NCBI GenBank assembly: GCA_046563655.1
Contig: CM102287.1
Location: 2,170,001-2,234,000, forward strand
Source: Yuukianura sp. NJ FZ-2021
Lineage: Eukaryota
Length of the DNA stretch: 64,000 nucleotides
Direction of reading: 5' to 3'
The position numbers were made by a program, and so were the translations under genes. Positions 3,301 to 33,400 of this stretch are shown one piece after another. Position 1 is the first letter of the stretch. Each line of letters begins with the position of its first letter. The notes beneath the pieces were generated by a model. The model was not told where the DNA came from and searched no databases. It saw only the letters and a list, made by a program, of their open reading frames with translations.

Positions 3301-6300
3301 ACATTCCAAAGTAATTTTTCTATTCGTTTCTATCTTTTCTTGAAGTTTCTGAGAATAAAACGCTCAAAAAATCACAACCCGCAGCCTGCAGGCCAAATGC
3401 AGGCGCCTGCAGAGCATTGAAGACTGAACCCGCCCGCCTGCAACATTTCCAAATAAAAACCTGCACGCCTGCAGCCTGCAAAAATCCACCGCAGGTTGAG
3501 CCCGCCTGCACGGGCTGCAGGTTGGCCTGCAACCTGCGCAGGTTTACCTGCAGGCTACCACCTCTGAGGTATCTTTTGAGTGTTTGAGTTAAACTTTTTT
3601 TGATTTCTTAGGTGAAACGAAGAGTAGATCAAGACAGACATGGACCAGGACGACACGCTTCGTCACGCGGAGGTCAAGGTCAAGGTCAAGGGGTCAGTGG
3701 TGACTCTTCACATTTTGAATTCATGTATTCACATCCAGGAAAAGGTACAGGCGAAAGTGGTGACAGTCCAGATTCCAACAACTCTGATTCTGTTCTCCTG
3801 ACGTCCGTGTCCAGAATTCCGGTAAGTGATCTGTAACTGAATTTCAGGAATTGATTGTTTTTGTTTATAGTTGAGAAGATCCGAGAGATCTTCTCTAAAG
3901 ATGAATTTGGGTTTGTGTTATTATGGTGGCGTGGGAATTGAAAGTTTTGACTTTGGGTGGGACCGGGACTCTTTGTGTAATAAATCTAGTGTGTGGCCTA
4001 TTCAACTCCACTCTGTCAGGCCTTAGCTCTGAATCCTTGTGACTCTTGGCATATTTTATGGGCGAGACATGTTCTGCATCCCAACAGGAATTACACGAGG
4101 TCAGAGGTCGTACACCACTCACACAAATATTACTCAATCCCAAACCTCTCCTTTGATGCTCCAAAAGTAAAAGCCAACAATAAAAGAAAGCAGGAGACTC
4201 AAGAATGGGTTCCTTTTAACACCCGCCTTCATCCACTCTCACACGCTTTTACATTTGCTTTTACTACTTTTTACTTTACACTCCACAAAAAAAAAGCAAG
4301 GAGGTCAAAAGGTCACAGTTTTTACTATACACGAAAATTCTTGTACTCAACCAATTTGGAATGCTGTTCCTTGTCACCGGTCAATTTTTTCAAAATTTGA
4401 CATTAGCATTTTTAATTGTGGAGAAAGTTTAATTTCCATATTTCTTCTTTTCTGTTTTCGTAAGTTACGCTGTGAATAGATAACTTGTGAACTCCTAGTC
4501 TGAGAATTGGAAAATTCACCACATTCACAATAGCATTTACATTATGATTGATAATAATCTACTTATATAAAATCGAGACCCTGTTTATCTGTGTGTGTGT
4601 TCCACTACTCCTCCGAAACTACTGGACCGATTTGGACAAATGAGGTGTCCTTTTCTTCGTGAGGTCACCCCGAAGAGCATAGGCTATGTCCCATCTTGAA
4701 TCTTGACCTGTGACCTTTGACCCTTGACCTGACGCGATGACCTCACAAAATCATCCCAAACACAGTCAAGTGACGCGTCATTCGAAAGCAGAGCTCAAAT
4801 GCAATCGATTGATGTATAGCACATTGACCTGTGACCTTTGACCCTTGACCCAGAGCCGTGACCTCATACAGAATTAAGCTGAACATGGGCAAGTGACACG
4901 TCATTCGAAAGCAGAGGTCTAATGCAGTCGATTGATGTATCACATTTTAACCTGTGACCTTTGACCCTTAACCCTGAGCGGTGACCTCACGTGAAATTTA
5001 GCTGAACATAGGCATGTAATATACCATTCGAAAGCAGATGTCTAATGTAGTTGAGTAAGGTATGACATATTGGCCTGTGACCTTTGACCCTTGACCCAGA
5101 TCTCACGTGGAATTAAGCAGAACATGGGCATGTGATACGTTGTTCAAAAGGGTAGGTTCAAAGTCAAATGCAGTCGATTGATATATGACATTGACCTGTG
5201 ACTTTTGACCGTTGATCTATGGCGGTGACCCCATATGAAGTACACACAAACATAGGCCTGTGATATATCATTCGAAAGAGGGGTGAAATGGACACGGTTG
5301 ACGTTTGTCGAGTTAATTCTGTCACCTTTGGCACCAAAAAAAAATAAGTTCCACAGTAAATTGTTCTCTAAATGTTAAACATTAATTGGATGGACGGGTA
5401 GTTTTAAGGGATTTCCGCCTAAGCAAAGGGTGGGGTAGGATATTTTCATAAAAATAGTCCAAGTGGGTCAGCATGTATCTTAAATGGGTAGCGGGTTCCC
5501 AAAAGTGAAACGTTTCTCTATGTTTGTTCGTATACACTACCACAAAAGCTAGCCCCGCTTTCACAAGCGGGTATCATACCTTGTGTATATATAAATAATA
5601 AAAACATAATGATGTTGTGAATACCTGTAACTGCTATGTATTGTGAAAAAATGCTAATAATCTCATGAACAGTTTGAATAGTGCACTAGAAAATGTTGCG
5701 AATGGTGTTGAGAACGATGTGACCAATGTTGTGAATGATGGATTGTGTTTTGGGGTGATTGTGTGTAAGTGTTAGTTTTAATTGAGAGTGAGGGATTGGG
5801 CTAATTGGAAAGCCCATTAGGCGCTGCATTTCAAACCCCGACTTTCTCCAGGGAAATATGCAGAGGAACCAGAGCACAACTTTCTCTTTTCTCTAACACA
5901 AACTGCTCAATTGGAAAACAAACGATCTAGACAGCCTTTTGGACGTTCGGGTAGGGGCCTAAGGTTAGGTTTAAGTTAGACTGGGACGTTAGATCAGAGG
6001 AGAAAGTGGTGGTTGCATGTTTAATCTGCATAGTAGTGTGTCCATTGGTTTGTGTCCTTTGGAAGCTGGTTGCTAGACAACAGGATCCATGTGCTCGTTG
6101 TGAGGGTGTGATAATCTAATAAGAGTGGGATCTAAGCAGGACTTGTGGTCTCATCTTGTTTCACCGAAACAACGGGAGTGTGCTCGTCTCCTCCTAGGTT
6201 CAACCGCATTTCTGCGTTTCTTCTAAAAACTCATTTAAAGCGTGTACAAAGACGCAGCGGGAGGGAGGCACTTCCAGTCTCTAAATCACACATCATCACA

Positions 6301-9300
6301 AATTGAACAAACACTGACAAGGGCACAGTAAAGTCCAAATTAAGAACAGACTTCCCCGGGAGGGTTTAACATTTTAGGAAATTGCAACTTCACAGGAAAT
6401 TGTAATATGACTTCGGGGAAACAGCTATAGGAAGGTTAGGGTATTAAATAAACATGTTGTAAACCGCGCATCTCTATATATAAAATCGAGACCCTGTTTA
6501 TCTGTGTGTGTGTGTGTGTGTGTGTCTGTTCCTCTACTCCTCCGGAACTACTGAACCGATTTGGACAAATGAGGTGTCCTTTTCTTCGTGAGGTCACCCC
6601 GAAGAGCGTAGGCTATGTCACATCTTGACCTGTGACCTTTGACCTTTGACCTAGCGCACTTACCTCACAAAATCATACCAAACACAGGCAAGTGACATAT
6701 CAATCGAAAGCAGAGGTCAAATGGAGTCGACTGTTACATGACATATTGACCTGTGACCTTTGACCCTTGACCCAGAGCGGTGACCTCATATAAAATTAAG
6801 CTGAACATAGGCATGTGATATATCGTTCGACAGGGGAGGTAGAATGCAGTGGATTGATCTATGACACATTGACCTGTGACCTTTGACCCGTGACCCAGAG
6901 CGGTGACCTCACATAAAATGAAGCGAAACATAGGCATGTCATATATCATTCGAAAGCAGAGCTCTAATGCAGTCGATTGATGTATGACATATTGACCTGT
7001 GACCTTTGACCCTTGAACCAGAGCGGTGACCTCACTTAGAATTAAGCTAAACATAGGCATCTCTATACTAAATAAAATCGAGACCCTGTTTATCTCTGTG
7101 TGTGTGTTCCACTACTCCTACGAAACTACCGAACCGATTTGGACAAGTAGGTGTCATTTTCTTCGTGAGGTCACCCTGAAGAGAATAGGCTATGTCACAT
7201 CTTTACCTGTGACCTTTGACCCTTGACCTAGCGCGTTAACCTCACAAAATCATACCAAACACAGGCAAGTGACATATCATTCGAAAGCAGAGGTCAAATC
7301 CAGTCGATTTATGTATAACGTATTGACCTGTGACCTTTGACCTTTGACGTAGGGCGGTGACCCCACGTAGAATTAAACTAAACGTAGACATGTGATACAT
7401 CGTTGGAAAGGGGAAGTCGTAGGCAGTCCATTGAAGCATGACACGGTGGCCGGTGACCTTTGACCTTTGACCCAGCGCAGTAACCTCATGCAAAATCAAA
7501 GAAAACATAGGCATGTGGTATATCAATTGGAAGAAGAATGCGAACAGAGTTGAATGACGTATAACAAGATGACGTGTGACCTTTGACCCTTGACCCAGAA
7601 AGGTGACCTCATGTAGAATTAAATTAAACAGGCATGTGATATACCGGTCTAATGGGGACATCCAATGGAGTCCATTCGTAACGGGATCCCCCAATTGGTA
7701 GCGGGTTTCCCATACTGGTAGCGGGTTTCCCGAATTGGTAGTAGGTTCTTTAGATTGGCAGCGGGTTCCCAAATTTGGTGGCGGGTTTCCAAAATTGGTA
7801 GCGGGTTCCCGTATTTGGTAGCGCGTTCGCAAAATTGGAAAAGGGTTTCAAAATTGGCAGCGGGTTCCCGAAATTGGTAGCGGGTTCCCGTATTTGGTAG
7901 CGGGTTCCCGTATTTGGTAGTGGGTTCTCCATATTGGTAGTGGGTTCCTTAGATTGGCAGCGGGTTCCCGTATTTTTAGCGGGTTCTCCATATTGGTAGT
8001 GGGTTCCTTAGATTGGCAGCGGGTTCCCGTATTTTTAGCGGGTTCTCCATATTGGCAGCGGGTTCCCGTATTTTTAGCGGGTTCCCGTATTTTTAGCGGG
8101 TTCCCAGAATTGGTAGCGGGTTCCTTAGATTGAGAGCGCGTTCGCGTATTTGGTAGCAGGTTCGCAAAATTGGTAGTTTTCAAATTGGTAGGGCATTGCC
8201 GGATTTGGCAGCAGGTTCCCGAATTTGGTAGCGGTCCCTTAAATTGGTAGAGCGTTCCCCATATTGGTGGCGGGTTCCCCGACTTGGTATCGGGTTGCTT
8301 AGATTGGCAGCGGTTTCCCATATTTGGTAGCGGATTTCCCAAAATGGTAGCGGGTTCCCAAAGTTGATAAGTTTTCCCTATTGTTCGCATACACTACCCC
8401 CCAAGAGCTAGCCCCGCTTTGACAAGCGGGCTTTTCAACCTTGTAACGAAATAGCTCAAGCCAATGGATGGTTTTCCCCCAGGCGGGGAATGTGGGGGGT
8501 GGGTACTCACTCTTTTCCCCGTATTCTTCCCCGTTTCCCCTACATTCCCCACCATTTTCCACACTCACACGCCTCTCCCCGGGGGAGTGGGGGTGGGTTC
8601 CCCCCACTTTCCCGCCCCCCCCCCGGGGGAGTGGGGGTGTTCCCCAACTTTTTCGCTCCGCACCCCAGGAAGCGCGGGTGTGTGTTCCGCCCACTTTCCG
8701 CCCCCCCCCCCGGGGGAGTGGGGGTGGGTTCCCCCCACTTTTCCGCCCCCCCGGGGGAGTGGGGGTGGGTTCCCCCCACTTTTCCGTTCCCCCCCCCGGG
8801 GGAGTGGGGGTGGGTTCCCCCCACTTTTCCGCCCCCCCCCCCCGGGGGAGTGGGGGTGGGTTCCCCCCACTTTCCGCCCCCCTGGAGGAGTGGGTGTGGG
8901 TTCCCCCCACTTCCTCCATCTAGGATGCCTGCCTTATGAGCGAATGGGCAAGGTAGCAGGCTTGCCTTGCCCATCTACACTGTCTGCTAATATGTTGACC
9001 TTTGATCCCGGTTTTGACCCCCTTGGAGGGGTCAGAGACCCATGGTTGATATACTAAAGTTGCTCCCCTCAATGAGAGGAACAACTTTTGTTAGGGTCAT
9101 TTTCCCGGTTTTATATTCAAAAGGTCAATGACCTTGACCTTTGACCCAGTAAAAGGTCACGGATCCGGATGATATTCAATAGTGAACAGGTCCGGGTCAT
9201 GACATGGTGACTGGTGAAAACCCGGTTGAAATTGGTCCAGTAGTTTCTGAGATAATAATTCGGGACAGACAGACAGACAGACATGAATCAGATTATTAAA

Positions 9301-15300: not shown

Positions 15301-18300
15301 GGATAGGACGTATGTGCTCTACGAGTATGTCAACAAAACGACTTTCACCAAGGAGCAAGTGGCTAACGAATACAATCCGGTCATTCCACACTTTCAGGTA
15401 AGAAAAAACTAATTTTAAATTTTATTTTAGTAAATTCAAAAACTTTTGAGAGAAAAGCTGGAGTCGTGATTCACGACTTTCTAATTGCAAAATGGCTAAT
15501 TTCAGAAACATAATTTCTTATGGTAATTTCAAAAACATATTTTTTGAAAAATTGGTCAAAATGCTTTTGGCGCAGAATGTTAGTGTTGAAACTGAGATTA
15601 AGGAACAATGTTCTTCTCAAACTGAGTCGTTAAGGGCCTGTTTCAAGAGAGTCCATGAAACTTTGTGCGTTAATAAACTTTGGAATGGGCCTTAGGAATT
15701 ATGAAAGAATGGAGTGGGGCCTCTCCCAACTTCAATTCAATAAAGTTTATACCCGGTACGCCGGAGTTCCTGGAAGGCTGCTTGTTCTGTAATGACCCTT
15801 AAGGGACGTTCTGGAACAGTTTAATGAGTCACGAGGGACAGCAGCTTCCCTGCAAGTATTCTGTTATGGCTTCTTGTCGATGTAGGCTTTTCGAAGGGCC
15901 AGTACTTTGTGGTGCATCGGCAGAAGTGTCCGAGTGTGCAGTTTCCCTGTGGCCATATCCACTTCCTATCAAATTCGGAATTGGTTAGCTAAGCTTAAGC
16001 TTCAATTAGTTTAGGCTTAGGTTTGAGTTAGGCTTAAGCTTAATTTAGGATATGTTAAGCCTAGGTGTTAATGAAGGGCGTTAATTACCTGGAGTAGAGC
16101 AGCATTTCGCTCAAGAGCTGTTTGGTGAAGGTGGGCGTGGATTAGAGCCAAGTCCCCCGGGGCCTTGATTGATCGCAGGTCAATCAATCTGCTGCCAAGG
16201 GCCCTCCGCCTCTCTTCTCTGCAAATTATCAAAGTGTCAATTAGGTTAAGGTTTTAATTTTGCCTAATTGTGTTAGTTCAGCGTCTTCCTCAGCTTGGGA
16301 GAAAGTTATTAGGTTAGGGTTTCAAAAGTTCCGCACAGTTGAGATTTAGAATTAGATTGAATTTGGATGTAAAAATAGAATTTTTGATTTTTAAAATTGT
16401 ATTTTTGAGTTGAAAAGAAGGAAATGGAGATAGGAGGATGAGTAATTGATTAGGTTAGGTTTTTTAGTGGAGTACGTTGGATTATGTTTGAAATGATTAG
16501 GAAAATTGAATTTGGAGATTGGGTCTTACAGAGCTGCTAGTCGAGCGTTGACTGCCTGTTCGTCAGCCACAACTTTCTCCATGATTTGTGTCAAACGAGG
16601 TCAAAGTCTCTGAGTACAAGAGTTGACTAGGACGAGAATCAGCAGGACACTACTGATTTGGAGCAGAATTGATTTTGATTGGGAGTGATGATTCTTCAAG
16701 AACTTTTTGTTTAGTCTCTGTTTTCATCATGTTTCCACGGAAACGTTTTTCTCCACTCACTTGCTTTCTCCACTTATGTCTTCCTTACCTCTTACCTGTC
16801 ATCGAGATGGAGAAAGTGAAAAGGGCTTTGGTTTTTTTTACAGGGTTTGCTTTTCACTCCTACTAAGGCTTAAAAAAATAAATTGAAACATGAAAACTTT
16901 GAATTTGGAAAAAAGAGTGCGGAAAATAGGAATTTCGCCTTTTTGTAGTAAAAAAAATTTTTTTTTTTCAAATTCGTGTCTTGTCTTTCCATTTGATACT
17001 TTAATTTATGAATCATAAATTGAGTATTGAGTGAATGTTGAAAAAAATATGAATTATCATCTTACTTGTGTTCACCCGAAGAGAAAAGAGATCTTGTCAG
17101 TGAAGTTTAGCACTCTTTTTTGAACAAAAATTTTTAGGAAACATTGAATTGTGACAAGTCAAAGAATTTGTTGCAATTCAAAAATAATAGTTATTTTTTA
17201 AATGTGGAAAGATTTTTACTGATTATGAATGGGTAAGATTTTAAATCAATTAGATTTTTAAAGTATAATTTCAGCGTATAAGGTAGAGAAAACTGATTCT
17301 GTGTGGATTCCAATTTCGAAATTACTTCCAAGTTGGTATTGTCGTTTGAAGTGTTTGGTGGAAATGGAAAAATGCGCTTGATAGAGATAGTGAAAGTGGG
17401 TTTTGAGTGGGAAGCGATTTTTGGTTGAGGATCGTTTTGTGAAGTGAGTCTGGTTGTGATTTGTATTGTACTGGGAGGATGGCACTGACACTTCCGCATC
17501 TCCACAAAAACCTAACTTGCAGCAGGGGTCCCTGTCTCGTCCTGGAAGAGTGACACACCGTGGCCATTCAGTTGACCTCATCCTACATCCCTTTATCCCT
17601 GTCCAGGGAGTGACAACTCTAATCCCATTAGGTCCACACACAAAAGTCACGACTTGTGGCAGATCGTGTCAGAGGTCATATAAAGTTACGTGAGGAGAGA
17701 GGGAGGAGTGACCTGAGTAGTTTACCTTTACGGGGAAACGGAGAGGGAGACTTCTGAGAATAGGGGGGACTTGAGGGAAAAGGAAGTTTGTTGTCTTTAA
17801 TTCTATTAGTTCTTTGTATGGGTTCCCCATTTCGGTCGAATGGAAAACAACTTTGTTCCCAGTGGAGACACTACGAGTCCACATCCCAGCAAATGGAAAA
17901 AAGACTCAAGTGACCACTTTCACCCCAACTGCCTTTGAAATCGGTTTCCAGAAACCGGGGGACGGTGGAGATCATTTTACCGCAGAAGCACACAAAAAAA
18001 AAACTCACTTTCTGCCGTCGGACCAAAAAATTGGGAGAGAGAAAGCGATTCGATGGAAAAATTTAGCGGAGAAAGCAATTAGAAAGTTTAGAAATCAAAT
18101 GTGTGCGTGACTGTGTATGTATTTTTAATTCTTTAGAATTGTAAAAAATTGATTATTTTTCAGGGAAATTTTCACGCTATTTTCAACGGAAGCTTCTACT
18201 ACGTCGCTGCTGAACCGGACAATGAGAACCGCCTTAGAATCATCCAGTATTCTCTGAATCAGCGCAAAAACGTTTCCGGTAAACATAATTGACCTTTGAC

Positions 18301-19692
18301 CTCAATGTGGAAAAGGAGCAAATGAATTGAAGTACTTTTTCATTTTCTTTTCGTTTGTTTTCATTTCCTAGAAATTTCGCTTCCGTACTCTTCTAATGCG
18401 TCAGCCCCACTCTACTCCCCCAGAAGTCCCGTCGCCTCCATCTCCAAAGTGGATTTGGCAGTAGATGAAAACGGACTGTGGGCCATCTACACCACTCCAG
18501 ACAGCACAAACACAATCGTCGTCAAGGTGAGGAGGTCAGAGGTCAACGACCTCTGCTTCTCAGGGGGTAAATGACCTGCATGATACAAATTGTAACGTTG
18601 GAGAATCTTGTGTTTGCTTTCAAGGACAAGTTGAACTTATTCTGGAGTTCTTGCCGTTTCACTTCGTTGGTTTGGTTGCCTTTGGAGTGGGACTGAGAGA
18701 AAGTGATGAAAGTGAAAGGTTGAAAGTCAACAAAGGAGCCTTTTAATTGGGAATTTTAAGCAAAAGAGTCCAATCCACACTTTCCTTTTGCATCTTCTGT
18801 TCTTTGAACAGTTCAACTTCCTTTGTTTTCTGTCACGAATTGGTCCACTAATTAAATCCAGGCTTCCACTAAACGTCAACAAATGAACGGAGTTTGATTT
18901 CAAAGTTAGATTCTTCTCTCACTTCTCCAATACTTCTACTTTTGCGAAACTTCACTTGCAATTTTATAGAATTTGACTTTTAGTTTTGTGAAATTGATTT
19001 GTGAGTTGTTCTGATGCTGGCGGCGCTGCTGGCATTGCCAAACGTGTGTATGCGTCCGTATCGTTTGTCCTTTTTGAAATGGAAAGCGATTCAGCGATTG
19101 TTTTGGAAGAAAATTAATGGTTGTTTTTGTATGTAAAATTAACCGATGTTGTGCAAATACTGTTGGCATTTTTTTTTAATTTGATCTGTTTTGAATCGTT
19201 TTCAGATTGAAGTGAAGGAGAACCGTCTGGAGATTGTGTATGGCTGGAACATCACAATCAGCCATCTCCATGCTGGCGATATGTGGATCACTTGTGGCAT
19301 CCTCTATGCAGGTAATACGCATCTGCTGGAAAATTAAAAATAACAAAACTGTTCAAAATAGAAAATTTTCAGAATAAAAATTGTAAAATTTTTCAGTGGA
19401 CAGTGTGAGGGAGAGGGACAGCAAAATCAGGTAAGCGAATTACATTCACTCTCACACAACTTTCAGTAAAAAGAAGCCGGAAATCACCGATTTTTGTTTT
19501 TGATACAGACTTGGCCTTGACCTCTACCGTCGGAAACTGCTGCACAAACTTGACCTCCAATTTACAAATCCCTTCATGCAAACATCAATGGTTTCGTACA
19601 ATCCCGGAGCCAAACAACTGTTAACACTAGATGCAGGGAACCTGCTCGTATACCCTGTCAAAGTCTCTTACCTTGTCCCCAACGAGCCCTGA
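392..19692 (+). CDS. Colmedin/gliomedin-like type II membrane protein (TM - furin site - collagen Gly-X-Y - 2 Ig domains - olfactomedin domain), about 27 exons
   Basis: Hand-spliced GT-AG exons stay in frame: 392-715 (TM LFFLTVLVSAILITA), 3612-3821, 11023-11065 (VMAIQDFCSKTKDYC), collagen exons 11151-12659, Ig1 12732-13970 (LRCSATGSPVPRITW...YVCFADN), Ig2 14040-14417 (LECEVEAFP...GLYFCIAKN), olfactomedin 15180-19692 (GKPV..GSWMRD, VDLAVDENGLWAIY, TCGILYAVDS, MVSYNP); TGA at 19690-19692. Architecture matches invertebrate colmedins (Drosophila CG6867 type). Confidence 0.92.
2058..3566. mobile_element. hAT-type MITE (outer element of a nested pair)
   Basis: TIRs CAGAGGTGGTAGCCTGCA / TGCAGGCTACCACCTCTG; 8-bp flanks ATGTATCT / AGGTATCT (7/8); many subterminal GCCTGCA repeats; no transposase ORF. 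Confidence 0.85.
2425..3075. mobile_element. hAT-type MITE nested in the 2058-3566 element
   Basis: TIRs TAGACTTTCACGGCTC / GAGCCGTGAAAGTCTA; perfect 8-bp TSD CTTTTGGT (2417-2424, 3076-3083); subterminal GAGYCG repeats. Confidence 0.92.
4558..5583 (+). mobile_element. Non-autonomous Helitron (Lep1-like) with internal ~123-bp tandem repeats
   Basis: 5' TCTACTTATATAAAA followed by a (TG)n tract and ACCGATTTGG; 3' hairpin CCCGCTT-TCAC-AAGCGGG then CTTG; lies between A and T with no TSD; about 4 units of a TGACCTTTGACC-containing 123-bp repeat. Confidence 0.78.
6471..8443 (+). mobile_element. Composite non-autonomous Helitron (two 5' ends at 6471 and 7060, one 3' end)
   Basis: Two copies of the 5' block TCTCTATA..AAAATCGAGACCCTGTTTATCT(GT)n; 123-bp repeats (anchors at 6748, 6871, 6994); 3' hairpin CCCGCTT-TGAC-AAGCGGG then CTTG at 8440-8443; A|T insertion site; same family as 4558-5583. 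Confidence 0.78.
7690..8362. repeat. ~20-bp minisatellite (consensus about ATTGGTAGCGGGTTCCCGTA), roughly 30 degenerate units
   Basis: Directly visible tandem units inside the Helitron; explains the spurious repetitive ORFs at 7242-8390. Confidence 0.9.
8575..8912. repeat. GC-rich ~43-bp minisatellite (CCCCCCCGGGGGAGTGGGGGTGGGTTCCCCCCACTTTTCCG), about 8 units
   Basis: Tandem units with G and C runs and internal dyads; explains the Pro/Gly-rich ORFs in all six frames. Confidence 0.9.
9315..9578 (-). mobile_element. Helentron-associated/DINE-1-like short element (second, adjacent copy)
   Basis: Read on the minus strand: palindromic subTIR AAGTAGCGAAGCTACTT, (GTCC/GTCT)n microsatellite, complementary subTIR GCTTCGCTACTT, stem-loop TCCGG..CCGGA and a T-rich end; homologous to about 9130-9320. 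Confidence 0.7.
11498..11690. repeat. AT-rich low-complexity 8-bp repeat (TAATTTTA)n followed by its reverse complement
   Basis: Visible in a colmedin intron. Confidence 0.75.
15864..16582 (-). CDS. CEP15/C3orf14 (DUF4570)-like small coiled-coil protein, 94 aa, nested antisense in a colmedin intron
   Basis: Exons 16582-16530, 16218-16089 and 15965-15864 with GTAAG/TGCAG and GTAAT/GATAG sites; phases match. Product: MEKVVADEQAVNARLAALEERRRALGSRLIDLRSIKAPGDLALIHAHLHQTALERNAALLQEVDMATGKLHTRTLLPMHHKVLALRKAYIDKKP*. The C-terminal half resembles the recalled C3orf14 segment [32 protein letters not shown]. Confidence 0.75.
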
Positions 19693-19910: not shown

Positions 19911-21222
19911 TCACTTTTCACTTATGACGACACTAAGGGTCCCCTTCAGTTCCCTCAGCAGTTTGTCATTTTCCAATGTCCCTGCTGCAATTCCTTCCTG
20001 GACAGCCTTGATGGCTCCGATCTCTGAGATTACTCCAGCGGCATGGCTATGAAGGTCTTTCAGAGCCTCAAATCGCTCAGACAGTTCAGGCAGAGCCTCG
20101 ATTGTAGCTGCAGAAGTCTCCAGAAGGTCGTACAGCGAAGACAACTGCAAATGACAAATCGATTATTAATTAGTTATGGTTAATTAAGTTATACGGTACA
20201 GTTAAGGGTAATTTAAGGATCAATTGACTGAATTTGAGAAGGAAATGTCACCTTCAAGTTCCGCTCCAGCTCCTGTACATCCAGTTTCTTTTCGACAATG
20301 CTGTTCACCTTTTGAAGAACGGAAGCAAGGCGTGACTCGATGATTTCAATGTGCGCAGGTTCCAGTAGTCCCAGTTTACTATGTAACACCGTCAAAGCAC
20401 CAAGGACGCTACTATGTCTCGATTGGAAGCCAAGAGGAGCCTAACAACAGGAAGGATTTTACAATTTGGAATGGATTGTTAATTAATAATTGAATAAGTT
20501 TACAATAAATATTGGTTTCTTACGAGGTTCTCCCTGCTTTGGCCTAATACGTGCTCCAGACGTTGGATACGAGCCTCCAGTTCAGTGGCCCTCTGTCCAA
20601 TGGATCCAGCGGAACTCAAGTTCAATGTCTTCTCCAAATGGAGTTCGTACTGAAGACCATTAGGATCCGACTCTGGCTTCTTGGCGTATCCCGCTAAACG
20701 TTCCTGGAGCACACTGGGATTCGGATGTCTACTTTTGATGAGCATCCCCATCTTCTTCTCCAGTTCCTGCAATTCATCTATTTGGTTCGGATCTGATGGA
20801 GGATTGGCCACCATTTCCTCAGCTAGCTCAGCCACCTCTAATTTGAGTCGAGCCAATTTCTCGGCTATGGTTTCCTTGCGTGGTTCGACTACAGGATCAT
20901 TGGAGTAGCCTTTGTAGAGGTCGAAGAAGTTGACGTTCCCATGCAGACGCTGTAGACGGAATCGCTCAAAGGCGGCTTCGACGCTGATCGATGGGGTTTC
21001 GATGCAAGGATTACTCACTTCATCATACCGCCCAAAATCGACGTATTGATCGGATTCTGGCAAGTCCGGTGTCTCGTACACGTCTGGCTGATCGTGAGCC
21101 TACAACAACAACAGTAATTAAATTACCGTTTAGTTAACATTAAGATTTTAGCAGCTTACGATTCCCGGTAGATTTTCATACTTGGAGTTGGAGGTGAATC
21201 CACCAGGTATTACAGATGACAT
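19911..21222 (-). CDS. DCTN2: Dynactin subunit 2 (p50/dynamitin), 4 exons
   Basis: KYENLPGI|AHDQPDVYETPDLPESDQ N-terminal signature, ETIAEKLARLKLEVAEL, LPELSERFEALKDLH; canonical introns; TGA at 19911-19913. Confidence 0.95.
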
Positions 21223-21756: not shown

Positions 21757-23871
21757 ATGGAATGTGAACCGGAGCCGCTGTCAGATTCCATGCCGCTGCT
21801 GGAAGTAAACATAACGGATGAAAACGAAAATGGAGAGTCGGTCGTTTCGAAACCAAAAGCTGGGCCATCGGAATCACAAGCAGAATCAAAGCCACCAGAG
21901 GCTGAAGAACCCAAGACACATGATCATGCAATCGTCACTGCAGTGAAGTCAAAGCCGCAGTTACAGTGTGTAAACTGTGACACAGTATTCACGAAACAAA
22001 ACCTCCGAATTACAGAGATCAGGCATCCGGAATCAGCTACCGACAATAGGATTTCGGCAGCTCTTTAAAAATTGTCGGTTTGTCAGCTACCGAAATCGGT
22101 AGCTGAAAAAGTAGAAAATTGAGTCTTTTTTTTACTCCAAAAACGAAAAATTTCGCGCGCCTACGGCGCGGGTGAGTCTACAGCTCTTAAACCAGATTTT
22201 CTTTCACGCCTAAGCTGCATTTCCAGGCCTCGCGACTACTACATCGATTTTTCCAAACAGTAAATCGTCTCCAGAATTCGATTTTCTCAGTGTTTTGGCT
22301 CCCTCCGGAAGACGATTTCTATGACGAGTTCGACTTCCGTAACCGATTTTTCCAATGCTCTTTGAATCTGGAAAAATATTTTTCGTAAAAGTTCGTTTTC
22401 AGTACTTCACGACTCCAGAAGACTAGTTTTTTCGGTTTGTTTTTCCCAGAAACCGAATTTTCTTCGCGCCTAAAACGCGGAGGAAAACTTCAAGTTACAT
22501 TTTGAAAGCTTTTCCAACCAAAAAAGACGGTTATCCTCTTATCCTGCCGTTTACATCGCATCACCTTCGAATACGGTCATGTAATCTCTTTTTAAAAAAA
22601 TGATTTTTTTTTATATCATGCGATAAAATTCACGTTTTTTTTTCGGCTCCGCCATTTTTAATCAGCTACCGAAATCGGTAGCTGAAATTTTCGCAAAATC
22701 GGTAGCTGATTCCGGGTTCATTCCGGATGTCTGACAGAGATCGAGGTAAATCTTTTTCATAAGGAAAGTATAAGAATGTGAGGCTAATTATCTTTTGTTG
22801 TTAGGTCGGTTATTGTGAGGAAGAGGAAGAGGATAAAGTAGATGATTGTTCTAAGATGTATCTGGTGGATGCCTTGTCATCTGTGTTTTCGCCAGGGACT
22901 GATCGTCAACAGGCCAGTAGGGATGAACTCCGGGAAGCTGGATTTTGCGTTAAATGCGCCAAGATTGCATCTCAGTTGTACGGGCACTTCAATACCCTCC
23001 TCAACTTCTCTACTCCCACTGCTCCAATAAGTGAACTCATTCCACAATTCAAAAACTTCCATACGAAGCATCCAAAACCGGAGTCCACCATTGTAAGCCT
23101 AAATGGAACTGAGGCTGAGGCTGAACAGAATGAAAGTAAGGAAGAAGTTCCAGATCAAAATACTTCCTCTGTCTCAGAAGTTCCTGAAGACAAGCTTGAA
23201 GAAGCTGCTGTAGAAGAGCCAAACAATCAAGAATTCAGCACTAACTCTGAAGTGGAGGTGGAAGAAACTCAAATGGAAGTCGTCGTGTCCGAAGTAACTG
23301 CAAGTGTCGACTGTGTCGAGATTGAAAAGCAAGAGGAACCAAAGAACGGCGGAGGAGATGATGATGAAACTGAAGATGAAACAATTGAGAAGAAAGATGA
23401 CGAACCGAAGAACGACGGAGATAACGAAGTTGATGATGAAGCAACCGAACCACAGGATGAAGATGAAGAAAAAGAGGCTTCTGCTACTGACGAGGAAGAA
23501 CCCGTTGGAGTTGTTACGACTTCTCCAGTCGTAATTGAGCTACGGAAGTCCGCAAGAGACCGCAAGAAAAGCCAAAGGTTTGGGGAGGATATGGAAGTGA
23601 CGCCAATTGTTGGTGCCAGAACCAAAAGCCAGCAGAGCCAAGCGACGAAAAGAGCGAATGCTGGAGATGATTTTGTCGTGGTTCCGAAAAAAACGGACAG
23701 TTCACGAACACCTTCACCCGTCAAGGCTAAAAGTCCACAGCGCAAGGTAAGGAATTCAAGAATTCTGAATGTTTGAAAACTTTGATGATTTTATTTAACA
23801 CTCTTCTTTTCAAATACTAGAGTACAGCTAACACCAATTCAGCATCGAAGCGCCGTAAGCGCAGGCGGTGA
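21757..23871 (+). CDS. Acidic low-complexity protein with a ZAD-like CxxC...CxxC motif and C-terminal basic NLS; exon 1 interrupted by a MITE in this sequence
   Basis: Removing 22020-22741 restores ...LQCVNCDTVFTKQNLRITEIE|VGYCEE...GFCVKCAKIASQLY (donor 22746, exon from 22805); last exon 23821-23871 STANTNSASKRRKRRR*. The ZAD call is from cysteine spacing only. Confidence 0.7.
22020..22733. mobile_element. hAT-type MITE inserted in a coding exon
   Basis: TIRs CAGGCATCCGGAAT / ATTCCGGATGTCTG; perfect 8-bp TSD ACAGAGAT (22012-22019, 22734-22741); subterminal TCAGCTACCGA repeats. Confidence 0.93.
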
Positions 23872-24449
23872 ACAAGTAATCATCGTAGTATTCACTCTGT
23901 CAGCCAGTCAGCGTAGTTAAGTCATCTGTTACACGAGTCATGTCAAAACAAACTGGAAGGCTACGAGCGTCTGCTGTTACTGCTTACTTTTCGTACTTAA
24001 TTGCATGCTACTAACTATATAATTTCTTCAACTATCGTTTCTTACTATGCTGCATTTTCAGTTGAGTCTGTTAATCTGTCGAGACAGCAGTGCAGAAGTG
24101 CAATACTAAGATCATTTCATTTTACTTTTATAGTGATAGGGATACGGATAACCATATTTTATAATCAGTTTTAATAATTTTATTTCCATGAACAACCTTG
24201 TATAAAGTAATCAAGTAGTAATCATTGCTAACTTCCTAAATTAATGAATTAATCGTAAGTGAGAGTTTTTGAAGTTTTCGAGGTAGACCCGGTAATGGTA
24301 CGGTGGTAAGATACATTTTACAGGATTTTCAATTAAAAATTAAGTCTGTACTGTCCAACTCTAACTTCATTTGGGTTTCACATTCATGAAATTCAAGTTT
24401 TTTTTTCGAGCAATCATATGATTTCTGATTTCGTCACAAACACAAGAAC

Positions 24450-26890
24450 CAGGGTTGGCAAAATGACGTCATTTTCACGAAAATGACATAAAAACGTTTA
24501 AAACGTTAAAAACGCGTCAGAAACGTCAAAAACCTTTCCTCCAAAAATTAAAATTTTTAATTCTAAATTGCTGTTAAATCTACATTGTAAACTTGCTAAC
24601 TATTAGCTTATAACGTATGCTGTCAGTTCTCACTGCTGTTTATTCAAAGTCCCCTTCGTCTTCCAATAGTTGTTCTACGCCGACGTTGTTGTCGTCGTTT
24701 TCGTCATCTTCATCGTCCTGTTCCTGTTCCAGTGGCTCATCTGGAATATTTTGATCCTCCCATACCCACTTTAGATTTGATTGTAGTTGCTCCTTCGACG
24801 CTTTGGAATTGAGGTACTTGTACATAAATGTCAGCTTTCCCGCTTTTGTATTTCCCAATCGATTCCGCAATTTTGAACGCACAAGTCCAAATTCGTTCCA
24901 GTCCTGCGGTTGAGGCGTTTGCAGAAAGATATTGAGCGCATAATTTAAGCCACGGCTCCTGTAACTTCCCCCAGTCGAAGATTAAATTGGGAGAAAGTTT
25001 GACGGATCTCCACCAAGTAAGTGGTGCAGTAGTAGTAGTGTCTCCAAAAATAGATATGAAGGACGGTGCAGCAGCTGAGCAATGTGACATCAATATTGGC
25101 AGGAATTCTTCGTTAATTTCTCTCTCAAACGTCCAAATCCGATTTCTTGTTCTTCTGGAGATCTCTCACACGGAAGGTCAAACAGATTGGCCAAAAAATG
25201 ATTTGGTGTCAGGCCATGATTGCGACGGATCAAGGCGGTTTTGACCGTATCAGGTTGATCCTTGAGGTCAGTCTCCAATTGGTGCCAAATTTCAACGGCG
25301 ACTGATATGGTACGTAATTCTCTGCGCTCTGATGCGCAATTGCGATTGGATTCGAGACTTGTAGTCCTCACAGTTGTTCGCTAAATTGACGTCATAACTA
25401 GTCTGGAAATTGCAGGATCGATTTCATTCGGTGGTCTTGGCAGACTTGTATCAGAGCTCCCCGATTTTTCAAAAAGTTCGAAGTGCGCGCAGTGTTCCAG
25501 CGAACGGTTGAAGGTAGGCACAGTTTTTTCCACCCACCTTGTACCAGGCTGCAGGGGAGGTGTGTGTACTTGAAGTATTTGATTATTTTTGTTACATGAG
25601 ATGAAATGTTGGACATTTGAACATCGTGAGAAAGTAGGTTCAAAACATGAGCAAGGCAGCCATATTGAATAATTGAGATGTCTTCATTTTTTTCAAGCTC
25701 ACGGCGCATTTTTGCAACGTTCCCTGTGTTATCAGTAACGAATGCTCTGACGCAGACGCCCCATTCCGTTTCACATCTGTCGATTTCTTCTTCCGCCAAA
25801 GTTCTCAAATATTCGGCTGTGTGCGCATGTCCTGATGTGTCAATACTGTTTGTTAAAGCTTGATTTCCTTCAGAATCAGCGATTGATATGCCGACAATTG
25901 GTTCGTTGTGGACGTTGGACCAACCATCAAGACACATTGTTACTGGTTTTTCTTTAAATTCCGTTTTGCATTCTTCAGAAATGTCCATGTGCACTTCATT
26001 CAAGAGATTACCTAATTAAATCAAAAATCACCATATAACCTCAATAGTTATTATTAGGATATATCATTCTATTGGAATATTTTGTTAATTTTTTAATCAC
26101 CTGAATCTCAGTAATGGAATAACGTACCCAGGCCTTAACATCTGAATCAGTTTGATGAACTCTGGGTGTTCAGCATGTAAGAATGGCGTATTCGTAGCGT
26201 AAAAATAACGAGCCAGTTGTTTGTCAATCCTTTTCTTATACTCAGTTGAAGTAAGTGTCAGGGATGAGTCTCTCGAAAGTTTGATTTTCTGCTAAGCCAG
26301 AGCCTGAACTTCCAATGGTTGATTAAGTCCTAATTAATACAATCAATATTTAAATTCTGGTTGAATTTCGAACTGAGTTTTAATGTTTTAATAACATTCA
26401 TTTTATTAGTGACTATGACCTGCTTAGGTTTTACCTACCTGAATTCGGCATCTGCACCGGATAGGTTAACGTCTTATGTGTACTGAAATGTGCACTCATC
26501 CGTGACACGCCAGCATGTCTCCACTTGCAACTTCGACATTTAACAATTGGGGTACTGGCTGCTGGATTGGGTTCTAGATCAAATTGTTCCCAGATTGGGT
26601 CTTTTCCCCGGGGCATAACGATAAAGTAATTACTACACAATTTACGATTGACGGAAAAGTCAAAAACAAAAGGAGAATTAAAACTATCGACGACAAAGTA
26701 ACGACTTCTTTTGTTTGTTGTAATTCCGCTTTCAAACCATCAAACCCCACGGGTTTTACTTAAAAATACGCGAATGCAAGGTTTTATAAAAAATGAATTT
26801 GACAAAAAAGACGTTTCTGACAAGGGGTCTTGTCATAAACGTTTTTGACAGACGTTTTTGACCGACGTCATTGTCATTTTGCCAACCCTG
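24450..26890 (-). mobile_element. hAT DNA transposon, near full length (2441 bp)
   Basis: 18-bp perfect TIR CAGGGTTGGCAAAATGAC; perfect 8-bp TSD ACAAGAAC (24442-24449, 26891-26898); internal transposase fragments. Confidence 0.95.
24640..26616 (-). pseudogene. hAT transposase, frameshifted (BED finger, DUF659-like catalytic region, C-terminal dimerisation region)
   Basis: MPRGKDPIWEQF..VKCRSC..MSAH (BED-like); CLDGWSNVHNEPI, FVTDN, GCLAHVLNLL, VRWN; LTWW..ASTAGLERIW; SKLRNRLG..KAGKL; split over several frames. Confidence 0.85.
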
Positions 26891-27067: not shown

Positions 27068-28242
27068 ATGTCCATTCCCGTACTTCCTCCGCAACTGAAA
27101 ACGTTGAACCACTGTCTCAAGATCGCTTCCGAACATGATGTTCGTGACCCCGTCGTCGCCTATTGGTGTAAGTTCAAATCAATTTTAACTACACTTTAGC
27201 ATTGTAGTGGACATGAAACTCATCAAACGTTTGGTGTTGCAGGTCGCTTCTATGCAGTTCAACAGGGATTGGCAATCGATAAAAGCTCAGCAGAAGCAAG
27301 AACGTTTCTATTGGCCTTGATGGACTGGCTGGAGAAACGTAAGAAGGAGATGAAGGACAACGAAGCCATAACCAACGAAGCAGTAGCGGAAGCACATATA
27401 GAGAACTACGCCCTCAGAATTTTCAACTGGGCTGACGGACAGGATCGTGCTGGAATATTTAACAAGTGAGTGGTTATACACGACTTTTATTTCCATATTG
27501 AACTGTCGTTTGATATAAATTCGAGAATTCTCGTTAATATTTTTCAGGAACGTTATAAAAACGTATTACACTGCTGGAATTCTCATTGATGTGCTGACAA
27601 ACTTCAACAAGGGGGAATTGTCTGAGGACCTTGTAGGAACAAGGAAGTACGCAAAATGGAAGGCAGCGTACATCAACAGTTGCCTGAAGAATGGTGAAAC
27701 GCCACATCCTGGACCATTTCCGGAAGAAGGAGAGGAAGAAGATTCCGATTCCAAATTCGACGAAGCATCTAACACTCAACAGCCTCCTCAGAATCAGCAA
27801 CAACACTCCAACTTGAGCCCAGGAAGCTCTGCTGCTGGTGCAGTTGGCGGATATTGGCCTAATATTGACAATTTTACTCAGCCTCAGCCTGTACCCCAAG
27901 CGAGACCCGCCGTGCCTTCACCTACAACTTCCGCTACGTTACAACCTGGAGGTGGGTTCAGTCCTCAAGTGAATCCCTACTCACAAATGGAATCGGCACA
28001 AGGTAAAGTACAAAGTTTTTGTTTACAAATGTTTTACTCATTATTCAATTACTCAATTAACTTAATAATAAACGTTGCTCTTGATTGTAGGTCCTGCCAA
28101 GCTATCAATTGCGGAGATGACCAAAGCACAAAAGTATTGCAAGTGGGCTGTGTCTGCCATTGACCACGAAGATGTACCGACTGCCATTCAGAACCTAGAA
28201 AGAGCCCTTCGCCTCCTTAAAACTGGCCACGACGATCCTTAA
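27068..28242 (+). CDS. VTA1: Vacuolar protein sorting-associated protein VTA1 homolog, 4 exons
   Basis: Exons 27068-27167, 27243-27465, 27548-28002, 28091-28242; EHDVRDPVVAYWCRFYA, RKYAKWKAAYINSCLKNGETPHPGP, and the VSL region KAQKYCKWAVSAIDHEDVPTAIQNL. Confidence 0.96.
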
Positions 28243-30473: not shown

Positions 30474-33400
30474 ATGTCGCTGCTCAACGTTACGGAGTGG
30501 ACAGTTCAACAAGTGGTAGAATGGATTGGAGGTAACGATTTTCGCACCTTTGTTGCAATCTTACTTTTGCTAATTACAGTTGTTTCTGATGATTGACTTT
30601 AGGATTGGATCCCACAATTTGCAATTATGGAGCGCAGTTCATCCGGAAGCAAATCAATGGTGCCAGGTTACTCAATTTGATGGCTGGAGACTTGGCACTG
30701 ATCGGGATAAACAAAGTCGGTGATCAGTTGCTCCTCCACGATGCCATTCAGGCACTACGAGACGTAAGACTTTTTCGTTTTTTCTACGATTTCCAGTAAA
30801 TGTAACGTTCAAGCGATTTCTTTTGTTGTTACAGGAAATGGAGACTGATAGGATCACATTGCAAACATTGGCCTCAAATCTTAGGTAAGTATTCACATTT
30901 TCAATTTTGTTTACTGTTTTTATGGCTCTCATGACGTGTTTTGTATTTTCCAGCGTCCGCTGCAAGACGTATCGTTCAGAGTTGAGTGATTTACCAAGGA
31001 AGAACAAAATTCCGACGCAGTCACTCTCAACGGGAGCTTATTTGCTGGATGCAAGCAAAACCTTGGTCCGATGGCTGACTCGATATCCATTCCTAGGTGT
31101 GATAGAATATGACGAAATCACGAAGAAGCTAACGAGGCATTGTTTCGAATTGGCTGTACTCAGTCAGCGAGATTTATTTGCTGACAACGCCAGCGAGGTA
31201 CGTTCTAAGTTTGTAAAAATGTGTTGATGTAACCACGCTTTAGAATTCAATGAGTCTTTAGCTTATTGTTTTGTTTTTGTTGACAGGAAGTCCAGTATCT
31301 CTGCACCAAAATTATTGAACTCTGTGATTACATGATCCACACCAAGGATTCGCTAGCATATCAGCCAGCTGCTATTGACATTGTCAATATTCGAAAAAGA
31401 CATGAACAAGAACTCGTAAGATTTCCAAGAGTTATAACTTAAAAAATGCTTTCAAAAGTTACACCCTTATCATTGTGTTTTAGGGACTGGAGTTCGAGAC
31501 AAGTTATTTTGGACTGCACTTAGTTTCTGGAGTAGTAACGAACTCCCCAGCACAACAATCTGGTGGGACACAACATTTAGATCGAGGTGACGAAATTCTG
31601 CAGGTCAACTATCAAACCGTCGTGGGATGGGTTCAGAAGAATGTGATTTCCTTGTTACATGAAAATCCATGTGAAGTAATTCTGACAATCAAACGACGAC
31701 CTCGTCATGCCAGTAACCTCCTTGGACATATGTATCTCAAACCAAGCAGGGTCCCTGTTCGCAAAATTGTGAGTCCAGTGGCAGAGGAGGCAGGGGAACG
31801 TGAGTTTAGCGAAAAAGAAACTATGAAGTTTCCACTGGCGACGACTGGAAAAGACGTAGAAAATGAGGAGCCGACTTCCAGTGCTTCTTCGAATGCTGAG
31901 GCAAGATTCTGGAAATTGTATCCCACGAGGCCGCGTGGAGTTTTGCGACGGAGGGCTACTGTCAGCGGGACAAGTCCAATCAGTACTCGACCACCAGTTA
32001 CTTTTATTCAGGTAAATCAAACCACAGAAACGATTTTCTGACGTTTTCGTGTAACATTTTTATAACCAATTTCATCTTTCATTATTGCAGGATGACAATT
32101 ATGCGCACAAGAAACGTCCGCCACTGGACAAATCAAAGTCCGAATCCAATAAGCTAGACGTAGATGACCAGATTTTAAAATTGTTCGTAGGAGATACAAA
32201 TGTGAAGGGCTCCCGAGTGACACTTCCGTTTATGGAGAAGCTTTCCGGAGATACTACAGCCACAGCATCAGCTGTGTCGAGCCCTCAACAACCGACGAAG
32301 TCCCCAGTCAAGACCAAACCGATGGATACTCTTGGGCGGTCGAGCTCGAGTGCCGGTCAAAGAGCAGGAAATCCAAGTTCAGAAATCAAAGTGGTCAGTG
32401 CCACAAGTTCTTCTGCTCAAGTGGGTGCTGGTGCTGCCACATACTCTGGCTATCTCCATGAACGAGCTCACTGGAAGTTTGGTCCACGCTGGAATAGGCA
32501 CAAGTCAAGTCTCTACAGGAATCTGCTTGTGGTGGGATCACATTCCTTTGAGATCAACGTAAACGAGTACAGAGTGGCACCAGCAGTCGAAGTTCATTCC
32601 AGACCATTTGCCTTCAAGTTAGAAAAAGCCAAGGAGAACCAAGGTACAGCGGCTGTTCTAAAAAAGTAAATATGATGTGAGACAGTTGAAGATTTTCATT
32701 TTGAAATGTTGCTTCTGCTGTTGCAGAGAAATCTGTAGTTTACATTGCAGCGGAATCGGAGCGTGAGATGGAGATTTGGCTGAAACTGCTTTGTAAGGAG
32801 TGTGGACAAGCATATCCGTTTGAATCTTACGGTCACTTGGACTCCGTTTCGGGTGGAAAGCTGTATCGTCGAAGTTTCTCTCTTCAGTGTAAGTTTTACC
32901 TTCAATTTACTTTGTGAGTCAGGGTGCAGATCATCATCTTAAGGTGTTAACTTTAGCATGGTCATGAGGATATGCGGAACATGAAAATGGGTCTGGGTTG
33001 AGTCATTTTCTCGATAATTTGCAAACTAAAATAGTTGCGATGTGCATGTCAAATTAAGTGAAACTTTAGTTGGAAAGAGACAAAGGACAAGAACAATGTT
33101 TGGATGTTATTTTAGCAACGGGAGCACCCGAGAAGCCACCGCGCCGAAGTTCCCTTCCACCCAAGCATGAGTATAAAGTGTCTCCGAGGTATCGCGTGCC
33201 TCTCAGGACTGATATTAAGGTCAATCACTACTCAATTGTAAACAGTTGAATTGTTTGGAGAAACGTGAAATGCTTGCTTGAACTGAACAAGAAGCAAGGG
33301 GCTTTCCGCCTTACTAACAATCTAATTTCAATGGCTTCCTGCTTTTTTTAGACAAAACTTTTCAAAAACTTGGGATTTTTAACTAACTTTTCAAATATTC

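What the first reader, a model, noticed from the sequence alone, without database searches (positions are those of the whole stretch)
15864..16582. Hidden nested antisense gene encoding a CEP15/C3orf14-like coiled-coil protein
Seen: three short exons (53, 130, 102 nt) with canonical, phase-compatible splice sites give a clean 94-aa ORF on the strand opposite colmedin, inside the intron that splits the olfactomedin domain; it is absent from the ORF track. From memory, TALERNAALLQEVDMATGKLHTR..KVLALRKAY aligns with human C3orf14/CEP15 (DUF4570), a poorly studied centrosomal protein that I do not recall being characterised in arthropods. It lacks the vertebrate C-terminal tail.
Basis: partly seen in the sequence, partly recalled or inferred. 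Interest (0 to 1): 0.7.

Follow-up and report, generated by a model that had tools for sequence, protein, structure and literature searches.

The report
Unannotated CEP15-like gene inside colmedin intron
A small three-exon gene very probably sits backwards inside an intron of a collagen-olfactomedin gene, and its 94-residue helical protein weakly but consistently resembles CEP15, a centriole protein that helps start cilium formation and is so far studied only in human cells.

Summary
On the minus strand, ATG 16582, exons of 53, 130 and 102 nt, two GT-AG introns and TAA at 15864-15866 give a clean 94-codon frame.

Such a model alone is not above chance: 5,151 comparable three-exon models exist in the first 52 kb. 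This one stands out:
- Exon GC is 0.51-0.57 against 0.32-0.35 in the introns.
- Codon usage scores +19 bits in frame and is negative in the other five frames.
- A CTAAY branch motif lies 19-22 nt before both acceptors.
- At its own values on all three measures it is the only model to pass, against 0 in reversed and locally shuffled sequence.

The spliced protein could not be scored. Reading exon 2, the in-frame intron 2 and exon 3 through with X at stops gives one Pfam family only, PF15134 CEP15-like. The score is 13.5-14.0 bits (E 0.05-0.07), below the 27-bit cut-off. The hit appears only when exon 3 is included.

An X-box-like palindrome lies 149 nt upstream of the ATG.

No RNA or cross-species evidence could be obtained.

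Verdict: probably a real, unannotated CEP15-like gene. It would be a new member of a known family, of modest interest.

The parts
16731..16744 (-). X-box-like perfect palindrome GTTTCC GT GGAAAC, 149 nt upstream of the ATG; candidate RFX site
   Evidence: Read. Both half-sites fit GTHNYY AT RRNAAC (consensus quoted in bioRxiv 10.1101/2020.08.21.260547, passage); the spacer is GT, not AT. The loose pattern has 9 matches at 7 sites in 64 kb, as chance predicts (mean 10.4), so this is a lead only.
16530..16582 (-). Coding exon 1 (53 nt): ATG and 17 codons plus 2 nt; donor GTAAGA follows
   Evidence: GC 0.53; codon score +4.7 bits
16219..16529 (-). Intron 1 (311 nt, GT..AG), with CTAAT at 16240-16244, its branch A 22 nt from the acceptor
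   Evidence: GC 0.315; branch-motif count
16089..16218 (-). Coding exon 2 (130 nt): 43 whole codons, helix-break-helix; its end carries the CEP15-like match
   Evidence: GC 0.57; codon score +5.5 bits; AlphaFold2 helices 2-15 and 20-42, pLDDT 83.6; Pfam stretch
15966..16088 (-). Intron 2 (123 nt, in frame, 6 stops, GT..AG), with CTAAC at 15984-15988, its branch A 19 nt from the acceptor
   Evidence: GC 0.35
15864..15965 (-). Coding exon 3 (102 nt): 33 codons and TAA; needed for the Pfam hit in long read-through constructs
   Evidence: GC 0.51; codon score +8.5 bits; matched constructs
15820..15825 (-). ATTAAA, a possible polyadenylation signal 38 nt after the stop codon
   Evidence: motif only. 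GC stays near 0.5 down to about 15740, so the 3' UTR may run further.
15398..18163 (+). Host intron of the collagen-Ig-olfactomedin gene that contains the nested gene
   Evidence: Host donor cag|GTAAGA at 15398 and acceptor ttttcAG|g before 18164. Flanking exons match OLF profile 1-61 and 67-99.

Best explanation
This is a real, independently transcribed, three-exon protein-coding gene on the minus strand. It lies wholly inside the 2.8-kb intron that splits the olfactomedin domain of a plus-strand collagen-Ig-olfactomedin (colmedin-type) gene.

Its 94-residue, basic, mostly helical product is a short member of the CEP15 (C3orf14, Pfam PF15134) family.

By analogy with human CEP15 (inferred, not shown here), it would join a coiled-coil bundle with CEP89 at the distal appendages, or transition fibres, of the mother centriole or basal body. 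There it would play a minor helping role in the early, vesicle-docking step of cilium formation. The X-box-like palindrome 149 nt upstream suggests RFX-driven expression in ciliated cells.

Shown here: the exon structure, the coding-like composition and codon usage, the splice and branch motifs, and the helical prediction for exon 2. Weakly shown: family membership. Inferred: transcription, partner, location and regulation.
For: Gene reality:
- Exon GC is 0.53, 0.57 and 0.51 against 0.315 and 0.35 in the introns, and the shifts fall at the predicted junctions.
- A codon-usage log-odds score, trained on 1,120 codons from Pfam-matched exons of other genes in this window, gives +19.0 bits in frame. 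The other two frames give -6.0 and -30.5, and the three antisense frames give -11.9 to -15.4. Each exon is positive on its own.
- Only four places in 52 kb hold a model with a higher total score. Two of them are the real dynamitin and Vta1 genes.
- Donors are GTAAG and GTAAT. CTAAT and CTAAC lie 22 and 19 nt before the acceptors. Only 46 of 5,151 models have such a motif before both acceptors, in 13 1-kb bins; 6 of these bins (5 genes) lie in genes confirmed by Pfam.
- Taking all three measures at the candidate's own values, 1 of 5,151 real models passes (this one), 0 of 1,564 in the reversed sequence, and 0 of 21,056 in shuffles.
- The start context is A at -3 and G at +4; ATTAAA lies 38 nt after the stop. 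The locus is single-copy in the window.

Family:
- PF15134 is the only family hit by any of the 13 locus queries.
- All 3 read-through constructs that include exon 3 hit it (91 aa 13.7 bits, 102 aa 14.0, 117 aa 13.5). All 3 with the same starts that stop at the end of the intron miss (58, 69 and 84 aa). Exon 3 therefore adds score.
- The match is co-linear: spliced residues 45-71 align with profile 43-69 of 110.
- None of the other 172 window ORFs scanned hit PF15134.

Function:
- In human cells CEP15 is a stoichiometric partner of CEP89. CEP89 recruits it to distal appendages, it is modelled in a coiled-coil bundle, and its knockout gives a mild delay in ciliation (PMC11984960 and PMC11984956, passages).
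- Flies have a Cep89 orthologue (PMC8353261, passage).
Against: - No query reaches the Pfam cut-off (best 14.0 of 27 bits). E-values of 0.05-0.17 are at noise level: 4 of 46 junk plus-strand ORFs from the same intron reach E <= 0.1 against some family. Thirteen related queries were tried.
- The aligned stretch runs about 10 residues into the intron translation. Exon 2 alone, exon 3 alone, and exon 2 plus 6 intron codons give no hit.
- An exhaustive phmmer search of the read-through against 1.84 billion representatives found 0 hits at E <= 0.001. Word-seeded searches found none either, although the host's own OLF exon also found none there.
- No match in PDB sequences.
- The X-box pattern is no more frequent in the window than chance. 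The odds of one falling within 300 nt upstream are about 0.03, and I noticed it after the fact.
- The thresholds were set at the candidate's own values.
- There is no evidence from transcripts or from other species.
Confidence: 0.6

Rival explanations
1. A real small spliced gene, but a lineage-restricted helical protein unrelated to CEP15. On this reading the Pfam hit is a chance resemblance between short helical segments rich in Ala, Leu and Arg.
For: All the gene-reality evidence applies equally. Pfam scores are half the cut-off and of a size that junk ORFs also reach. No homologue was found in 1.84 billion representatives.
Against: The only family ever hit is the one of matching size, at a co-linear position. 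Exon 3 raises the score in 3 of 3 matched comparisons. An X-box-like site fits a ciliary gene.
Confidence: 0.2
2. Not a gene: three GC-richer patches of an intron (for example old repeat debris or regulatory DNA) that happen to carry an open frame and splice-like motifs.
For: Thousands of three-exon models exist by chance. The locus-derived protein searches returned no protein, this one included. There is no evidence from other species. My composite thresholds were set after the fact.
Against: The codon signal is specific to one frame, with the other five frames negative. GC steps, donors, branch motifs and acceptors all coincide. Reversed and locally shuffled sequence gave 0 passing models. 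The locus has no repeat copies in the window.
Confidence: 0.13
3. A spliced antisense non-coding RNA of the host gene whose exons carry an open frame that is not translated.
For: Antisense intronic transcripts are common (general knowledge). Nothing here shows translation.
Against: The codon-usage signal is specific to one frame and positive in each of the three exons. Start context is good. There is weak family resemblance.
Confidence: 0.05

Closest known systems
Human CEP15 (formerly C3ORF14), Pfam PF15134 CEP15-like
   Same: It is a small helical protein and PF15134 is the only Pfam family hit. The match is co-linear, at profile 43-69 of 110. The expected role follows the human protein, which CEP89 recruits to centriole distal appendages and whose knockout mildly delays ciliation (PMC11984960 and PMC11984956, passages).
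   Different: Scores are half the family cut-off. At 94 residues it would end near profile position 92 and so lack the family's C-terminal end (inferred from the offset). No partner, location or phenotype is known. It comes from a probable arthropod, where I found no paper on CEP15.
Genes nested in introns on the opposite strand, common in insects (recalled from general knowledge, not from a call)
   Same: The whole coding region, a candidate promoter motif and a poly(A) signal lie inside one host intron on the other strand.
   Different: Nothing unusual. There is no exon overlap with the host and no sign of a functional link to it.
RFX/DAF-19 X-box-regulated ciliary genes
   Same: A 14-bp palindrome with both half-sites of GTHNYY AT RRNAAC lies 149 nt before the ATG. 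That is within the range used to call X-box genes (10.1101/2020.08.21.260547; PMC3245922; passages only).
   Different: The spacer is GT, not AT. The motif is at chance frequency in the window. No binding or expression data exist.
   Same: In human cells KIZ is modelled in the same coiled-coil bundle as CEP15 (PMC11984960, figure legend).
   Different: No Pfam family other than PF15134 was reported for any of the 13 locus queries.

Membership tests
CEP15-like (Pfam PF15134) | Match to the family profile at or above the curated cut-off of 27 bits | tested here: inconclusive
   The best score is 14.0 bits, E 0.05, and only for read-throughs interrupted by 41 intron codons. The spliced protein could not be submitted, so the proper test was not run.
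CEP15-like (Pfam PF15134) | Small protein of about the profile's length (110), aligned end to end in the same order | tested here: met
   The protein has 94 residues. Spliced residues 45-71 align with profile 43-69, an offset of 2.
CEP15-like (Pfam PF15134) | Helical, coiled-coil-forming chain | tested here: inconclusive
   Exon 2 folds as helix 2-15, a break, then helix 20-42, pLDDT 83.6, from a single sequence. In residues 1-32, 6 of 8 a/d heptad positions hold strongly hydrophobic residues. Amphipathic moments do not exceed shuffles.
CEP15-like (Pfam PF15134) | Recognisable orthologues in other species | tested here: inconclusive
   No hits. The word-seeded database also failed to find the host's OLF exon, so its coverage of this lineage is poor. 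No genome of a relative is available.
CEP15-like (Pfam PF15134) | Binds CEP89 and localises to centriole distal appendages | not testable with these tools
   Known for the human protein only (PMC11984960, passages).
Nested intronic gene | Whole coding region inside one intron of another gene | tested here: met
   The CDS 15864-16582 lies within host intron 15398-18163, on the opposite strand.
Nested intronic gene | Own transcript with the predicted splice junctions | not testable with these tools
RFX X-box target gene | [quoted passage not shown] | tested here: inconclusive
   Both half-sites fit and the spacer differs by one base. Seven sites in 64 kb equals chance.

The most novel reading that the evidence does not exclude
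This is an arthropod CEP15: a minimal form without the C-terminal tail, possibly RFX-driven, and missed by gene prediction because it is tiny, spliced and hidden in another gene's intron. If so, the CEP89-CEP15 part of the distal-appendage machinery predates vertebrates. It would also add a fourth protein to the three transition-fibre proteins (FBF1, Cep89, Cep164) said to have clear fly orthologues (PMC8353261, passage).
Probability: 0.5. Interest if true: 0.45.

Novelty: new member of a known kind. Interest (0 to 1): 0.35.

Why it matters
If it holds, the gene extends a barely studied centriole and cilium protein family beyond vertebrates. It also gives arthropod cilium biologists a testable partner for Cep89.

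It is a concrete example of a small spliced gene that ORF-based annotation misses. A codon-usage, GC-contrast and branch-site screen can recover such genes.

Nesting in an intron is in itself ordinary. The human knockout phenotype is mild, so the biological weight is modest.

Tried and rejected
- **RNA evidence:** no RNA holder listed, so no reads could be laid.
- **Whole genome:** none is held for this window, so conservation of the nesting could not be checked.
- **Single exons against Pfam:** no hit.
- **Word-seeded protein search:** exon 2 against longer proteins found none, and the read-through found none. The positive control, the host's OLF exon, also found none, so these blanks carry little weight.
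- **Exhaustive representative search:** 0 hits with the read-through.
- **ESM Atlas:** exon 2 gave only low-scoring bacterial clusters. Exon 3 gave no usable hit.
- **PDB sequences:** nothing relevant; one hit at E 1.5 to a TEF-3 peptide.
- **Metagenome contigs:** two loci, both in long bacterial ORFs, picked up through the forced word LIDLRSIK. I rejected them as chance.
- **Earlier notes of this scan:** nothing on this genome or sequence.
- **Rfam:** no RNA family in the window.
- **Literature:** no paper held 'C3orf14 homolog', 'C3orf14-like', 'DUF4570' or 'PF15134'. Nothing useful linked C3orf14 to RFX or to evolution.
- **Plus-strand reading of the same GC-rich patches:** no Pfam hit and no protein-like sequence.
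- **Repeat or transposon origin:** the locus is single-copy in the window.

Full report
**1. What is there**

On the minus strand an ATG at 16582 (A at -3, G at +4) opens a 53-nt exon that ends before GTAAGA. A 311-nt intron ends in tttgcAG. A 130-nt exon (16218-16089) ends in CAG before GTAATT. A 123-nt intron ends in ttgatAG. A 102-nt exon (15965-15864) ends in TAA.

Joined by coordinates in a script, these give 285 nt, 94 codons and one terminal stop. An in-frame stop lies 7 codons upstream of the ATG.

**2. The host gene**

The host is a plus-strand gene with Collagen, Ig and OLF exons. Its OLF domain is split. Profile positions 1-61 end at the donor at 15398. Positions 67-99 begin at 18164, 110-153 lie at 18326-18571, and 198-245 at 19504-19689.

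The candidate therefore lies wholly within host intron 15398-18163, on the opposite strand.

**3. Is it more than chance?**

The bare pattern is not. I required an ATG, GTRA donors, YAG acceptors, introns of 50-400 nt and a CDS of at least 282 nt. That gave 5,151 three-exon models in the first 52 kb on both strands.

This model is unusual in three largely independent ways.

- **GC contrast.** Exon GC is 0.53, 0.57 and 0.51 against 0.315 and 0.35 in the introns, and the steps fall at the junctions. The model ranks 16th of 5,151 on this contrast. The 15 better models lie in two places: a tandem repeat at 34.1-35.6 kb, and 19.9-21.2 kb minus. Pfam later showed the second place to be a real dynamitin gene.
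- **Codon usage.** I trained a codon log-odds score on 1,120 codons from Pfam-matched exon stretches of the other genes in the window. The null was the out-of-frame and antisense codons of the same stretches, so overall GC largely cancels. The candidate scores +19.0 bits in frame, -6.0 and -30.5 in the other two frames, and -11.9 to -15.4 on the antisense strand. All three exons are positive. It ranks 259th by total score and 55th per codon out of 5,151. Every model with a higher total lies in one of four places, two of which are dynamitin and Vta1.
- **Branch motifs.** CTAAT and CTAAC sit 22 and 19 nt before the two acceptors. Only 46 of 5,151 models have CTRAY before both acceptors. Those 46 fall in 13 1-kb bins, and 6 of these bins (5 genes) lie in genes confirmed by Pfam.

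At the candidate's own values on all three measures, it is the only one of 5,151 models to pass. None of 1,564 models in the reversed sequence passes, and none of 21,056 in ten shuffles that keep local GC.

The thresholds were set after the fact, so this is an upper bound on chance and not a P-value.

The locus is single-copy in the window. ATTAAA follows the stop by 38 nt.

I put the odds that this is a real spliced coding gene at about 0.8.

**4. What family?**

The spliced protein may not be typed into a tool, so the proper test could not be run.

Single exons give no Pfam hit even at E <= 10. Intron 2 is in frame, however, so I read exon 2, intron 2 and exon 3 through by reference with X at the six stops. 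That 117-residue reading hits one family only: PF15134, CEP15-like. The score is 13.5 bits, E 0.073, against a cut-off of 27. Residues 27-53 align with profile positions 43-69 of 110.

Matched constructs show that exon 3 matters:

| Start of construct (residue of the 117-aa reading) | With exon 3 | Ending at the end of the intron |
|---|---|---|
| Residue 26 | 91 aa: 13.7 bits, E 0.065 | 58 aa: no hit |
| Residue 16 | 102 aa: 14.0 bits, E 0.05 | 69 aa: no hit |
| Residue 1 (start of exon 2) | 117 aa: 13.5 bits, E 0.073 | 84 aa: no hit |

Short pieces that end 16 codons into the intron score 13.2 bits (33 aa) and 12.3 bits (59 aa).

In all, 5 of 13 locus queries hit, always PF15134 and nothing else.

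My inference is as follows. A second separate stretch must pay the profile's entry cost again. A net gain from exon 3 therefore implies that it fits the profile. A contiguous spliced query should then score clearly higher, though I cannot say whether it would reach 27 bits.

The match is also co-linear. Exon 2 starts at spliced residue 19, so residues 45-71 meet profile positions 43-69.

**5. Against the family assignment**

- E-values of 0.05-0.17 are noise-sized. Of 46 junk plus-strand ORFs in the same intron, 4 reach E <= 0.1 against some family, though none against PF15134.
- About 10 aligned residues are intron translation. Exon 2 alone and exon 2 plus 6 codons fall below the reporting level.
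- The exhaustive search of 1.84 billion representatives with the read-through found nothing at E <= 0.001.
- The two word-seeded searches found nothing. The same database also failed on the host's OLF exon, so it seems blind to this lineage.
- PDB sequences and the Atlas gave nothing.
- The two metagenome loci are bacterial chance hits.

**6. A functional lead**

A perfect palindrome, GTTTCC GT GGAAAC, lies at 16731-16744, 149 nt upstream of the ATG. It fits both half-sites of the RFX/DAF-19 X-box consensus GTHNYY AT RRNAAC. I saw that consensus quoted in a passage of bioRxiv 10.1101/2020.08.21.260547. The spacer here is GT.

Passages of PMC3245922 describe 14-bp X-boxes within 500 bp of the start codon as indicators of ciliary genes.

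The loose pattern is no more frequent in the window than chance: 9 matches at 7 sites, against a chance mean of 10.4. A site within 300 nt upstream has odds of about 0.03. I noticed it after forming the ciliary hypothesis, so it is a lead and not proof.

**7. How it would work**

In human RPE cells, CEP15 (renamed from C3ORF14) is a stoichiometric partner of CEP89 and localises to distal appendages. It needs CEP89, but not NCS1, to get there.

AlphaFold2 places it in a coiled-coil bundle with CEP89, SCLT1 and KIZ. Its knockout gives a much milder delay in ciliation than loss of CEP89 or NCS1. I saw these points in passages of PMC11984960 and PMC11984956.

A passage of PMC8353261 says only FBF1, Cep89 and Cep164 have clear fly orthologues. 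The likely partner therefore exists in arthropods.

AlphaFold2 on the exon 2 peptide gives helix 2-15, a break at the Pro-Gly, then helix 20-42, with pLDDT 83.6. In residues 1-32, 6 of 8 a/d heptad positions hold strongly hydrophobic residues.

By inference, the product is a small helical adaptor that packs against Cep89 at the basal body.

**8. The organism**

A (CCTAA)133 array at 52921-53580 matches the arthropod telomere unit as I recall it.

**9. Verdict**

My odds are:
- real CEP15-like gene: 0.6;
- real gene of another kind: 0.2;
- no gene: 0.13;
- non-coding antisense RNA: 0.05.

It would be a new member of a known family, in a common genomic arrangement. I found no paper on invertebrate CEP15 in the searchable library. 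I did not look at supplementary tables, which may list orthologues.

Noticed in passing
window 52714-64000: After a run of 100 N (near 52.8 kb) comes a (CCTAA)133 array at 52921-53580, then a 50-bp satellite repeated about 206 times to the end of the window. It looks like a contig that starts with a telomere and subtelomeric satellite and was joined to the gene-rich part by scaffolding, or else an interstitial telomeric array.
   Followed up: partly
window 15966-16529 (both introns of the nested gene): The pentamer CCTAA occurs 10 times in 434 nt of the two introns on the gene's strand. CCTAA plus TTAGG together run at about 2.4 per kb over the first 52 kb. Some copies double as CTAAY branch-site motifs; the rest are unexplained.
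   Followed up: partly
window 16738-16750 (-) and 18266-18278 (+): The 13-mer AAAAACGTTTCCG occurs twice only: once over the X-box-like palindrome upstream of the nested gene, and once, on the other strand, at the very end of the next host exon, just before its donor. It may be coincidence or a shared motif.
   Followed up: no
window 19914-21099 (-): A dynamitin (dynactin subunit 2) gene lies tail to tail with the colmedin-type gene. Three exons cover Pfam Dynamitin positions 1-375.
   Followed up: partly
window 27200-28160 (+), 30889-31224 (+), 43050-44646 (-), 48602-49138 (-), 25401-26015 (-): Other genes identified by Pfam: Vta1, CNK (CRIC domain), Tmp39, POPDC, and a DUF659 ORF that may belong to a transposon.
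   Followed up: no
window 22805-23773 (+): A 323-codon open frame with no Pfam hit. Three-exon models in this place (span 22856-24164) score high on codon usage. It may be an uncharacterised gene.
   Followed up: no
window 34100-35600: Two near-identical tandem copies, about 780 nt apart, of a GC-rich unit with open frames on both strands and no Pfam hit. They top the GC-contrast ranking without other coding support.
   Followed up: no
window 4703-8360: Arrays of a 123-bp tandem repeat (three blocks) and a 20/40-bp repeat, then a G/C-rich 45/86/131-bp repeat at 8577-8912.
   Followed up: no
L002 438-524: A bacterial metagenome ORF shares the exact word LIDLRSIK and about 53% identity over 30 residues with exon 2. 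From recall it looks like a 2-oxoacid dehydrogenase E1 beta or transketolase C-terminal region. I judged it a chance match produced by word-based preselection.
   Followed up: partly
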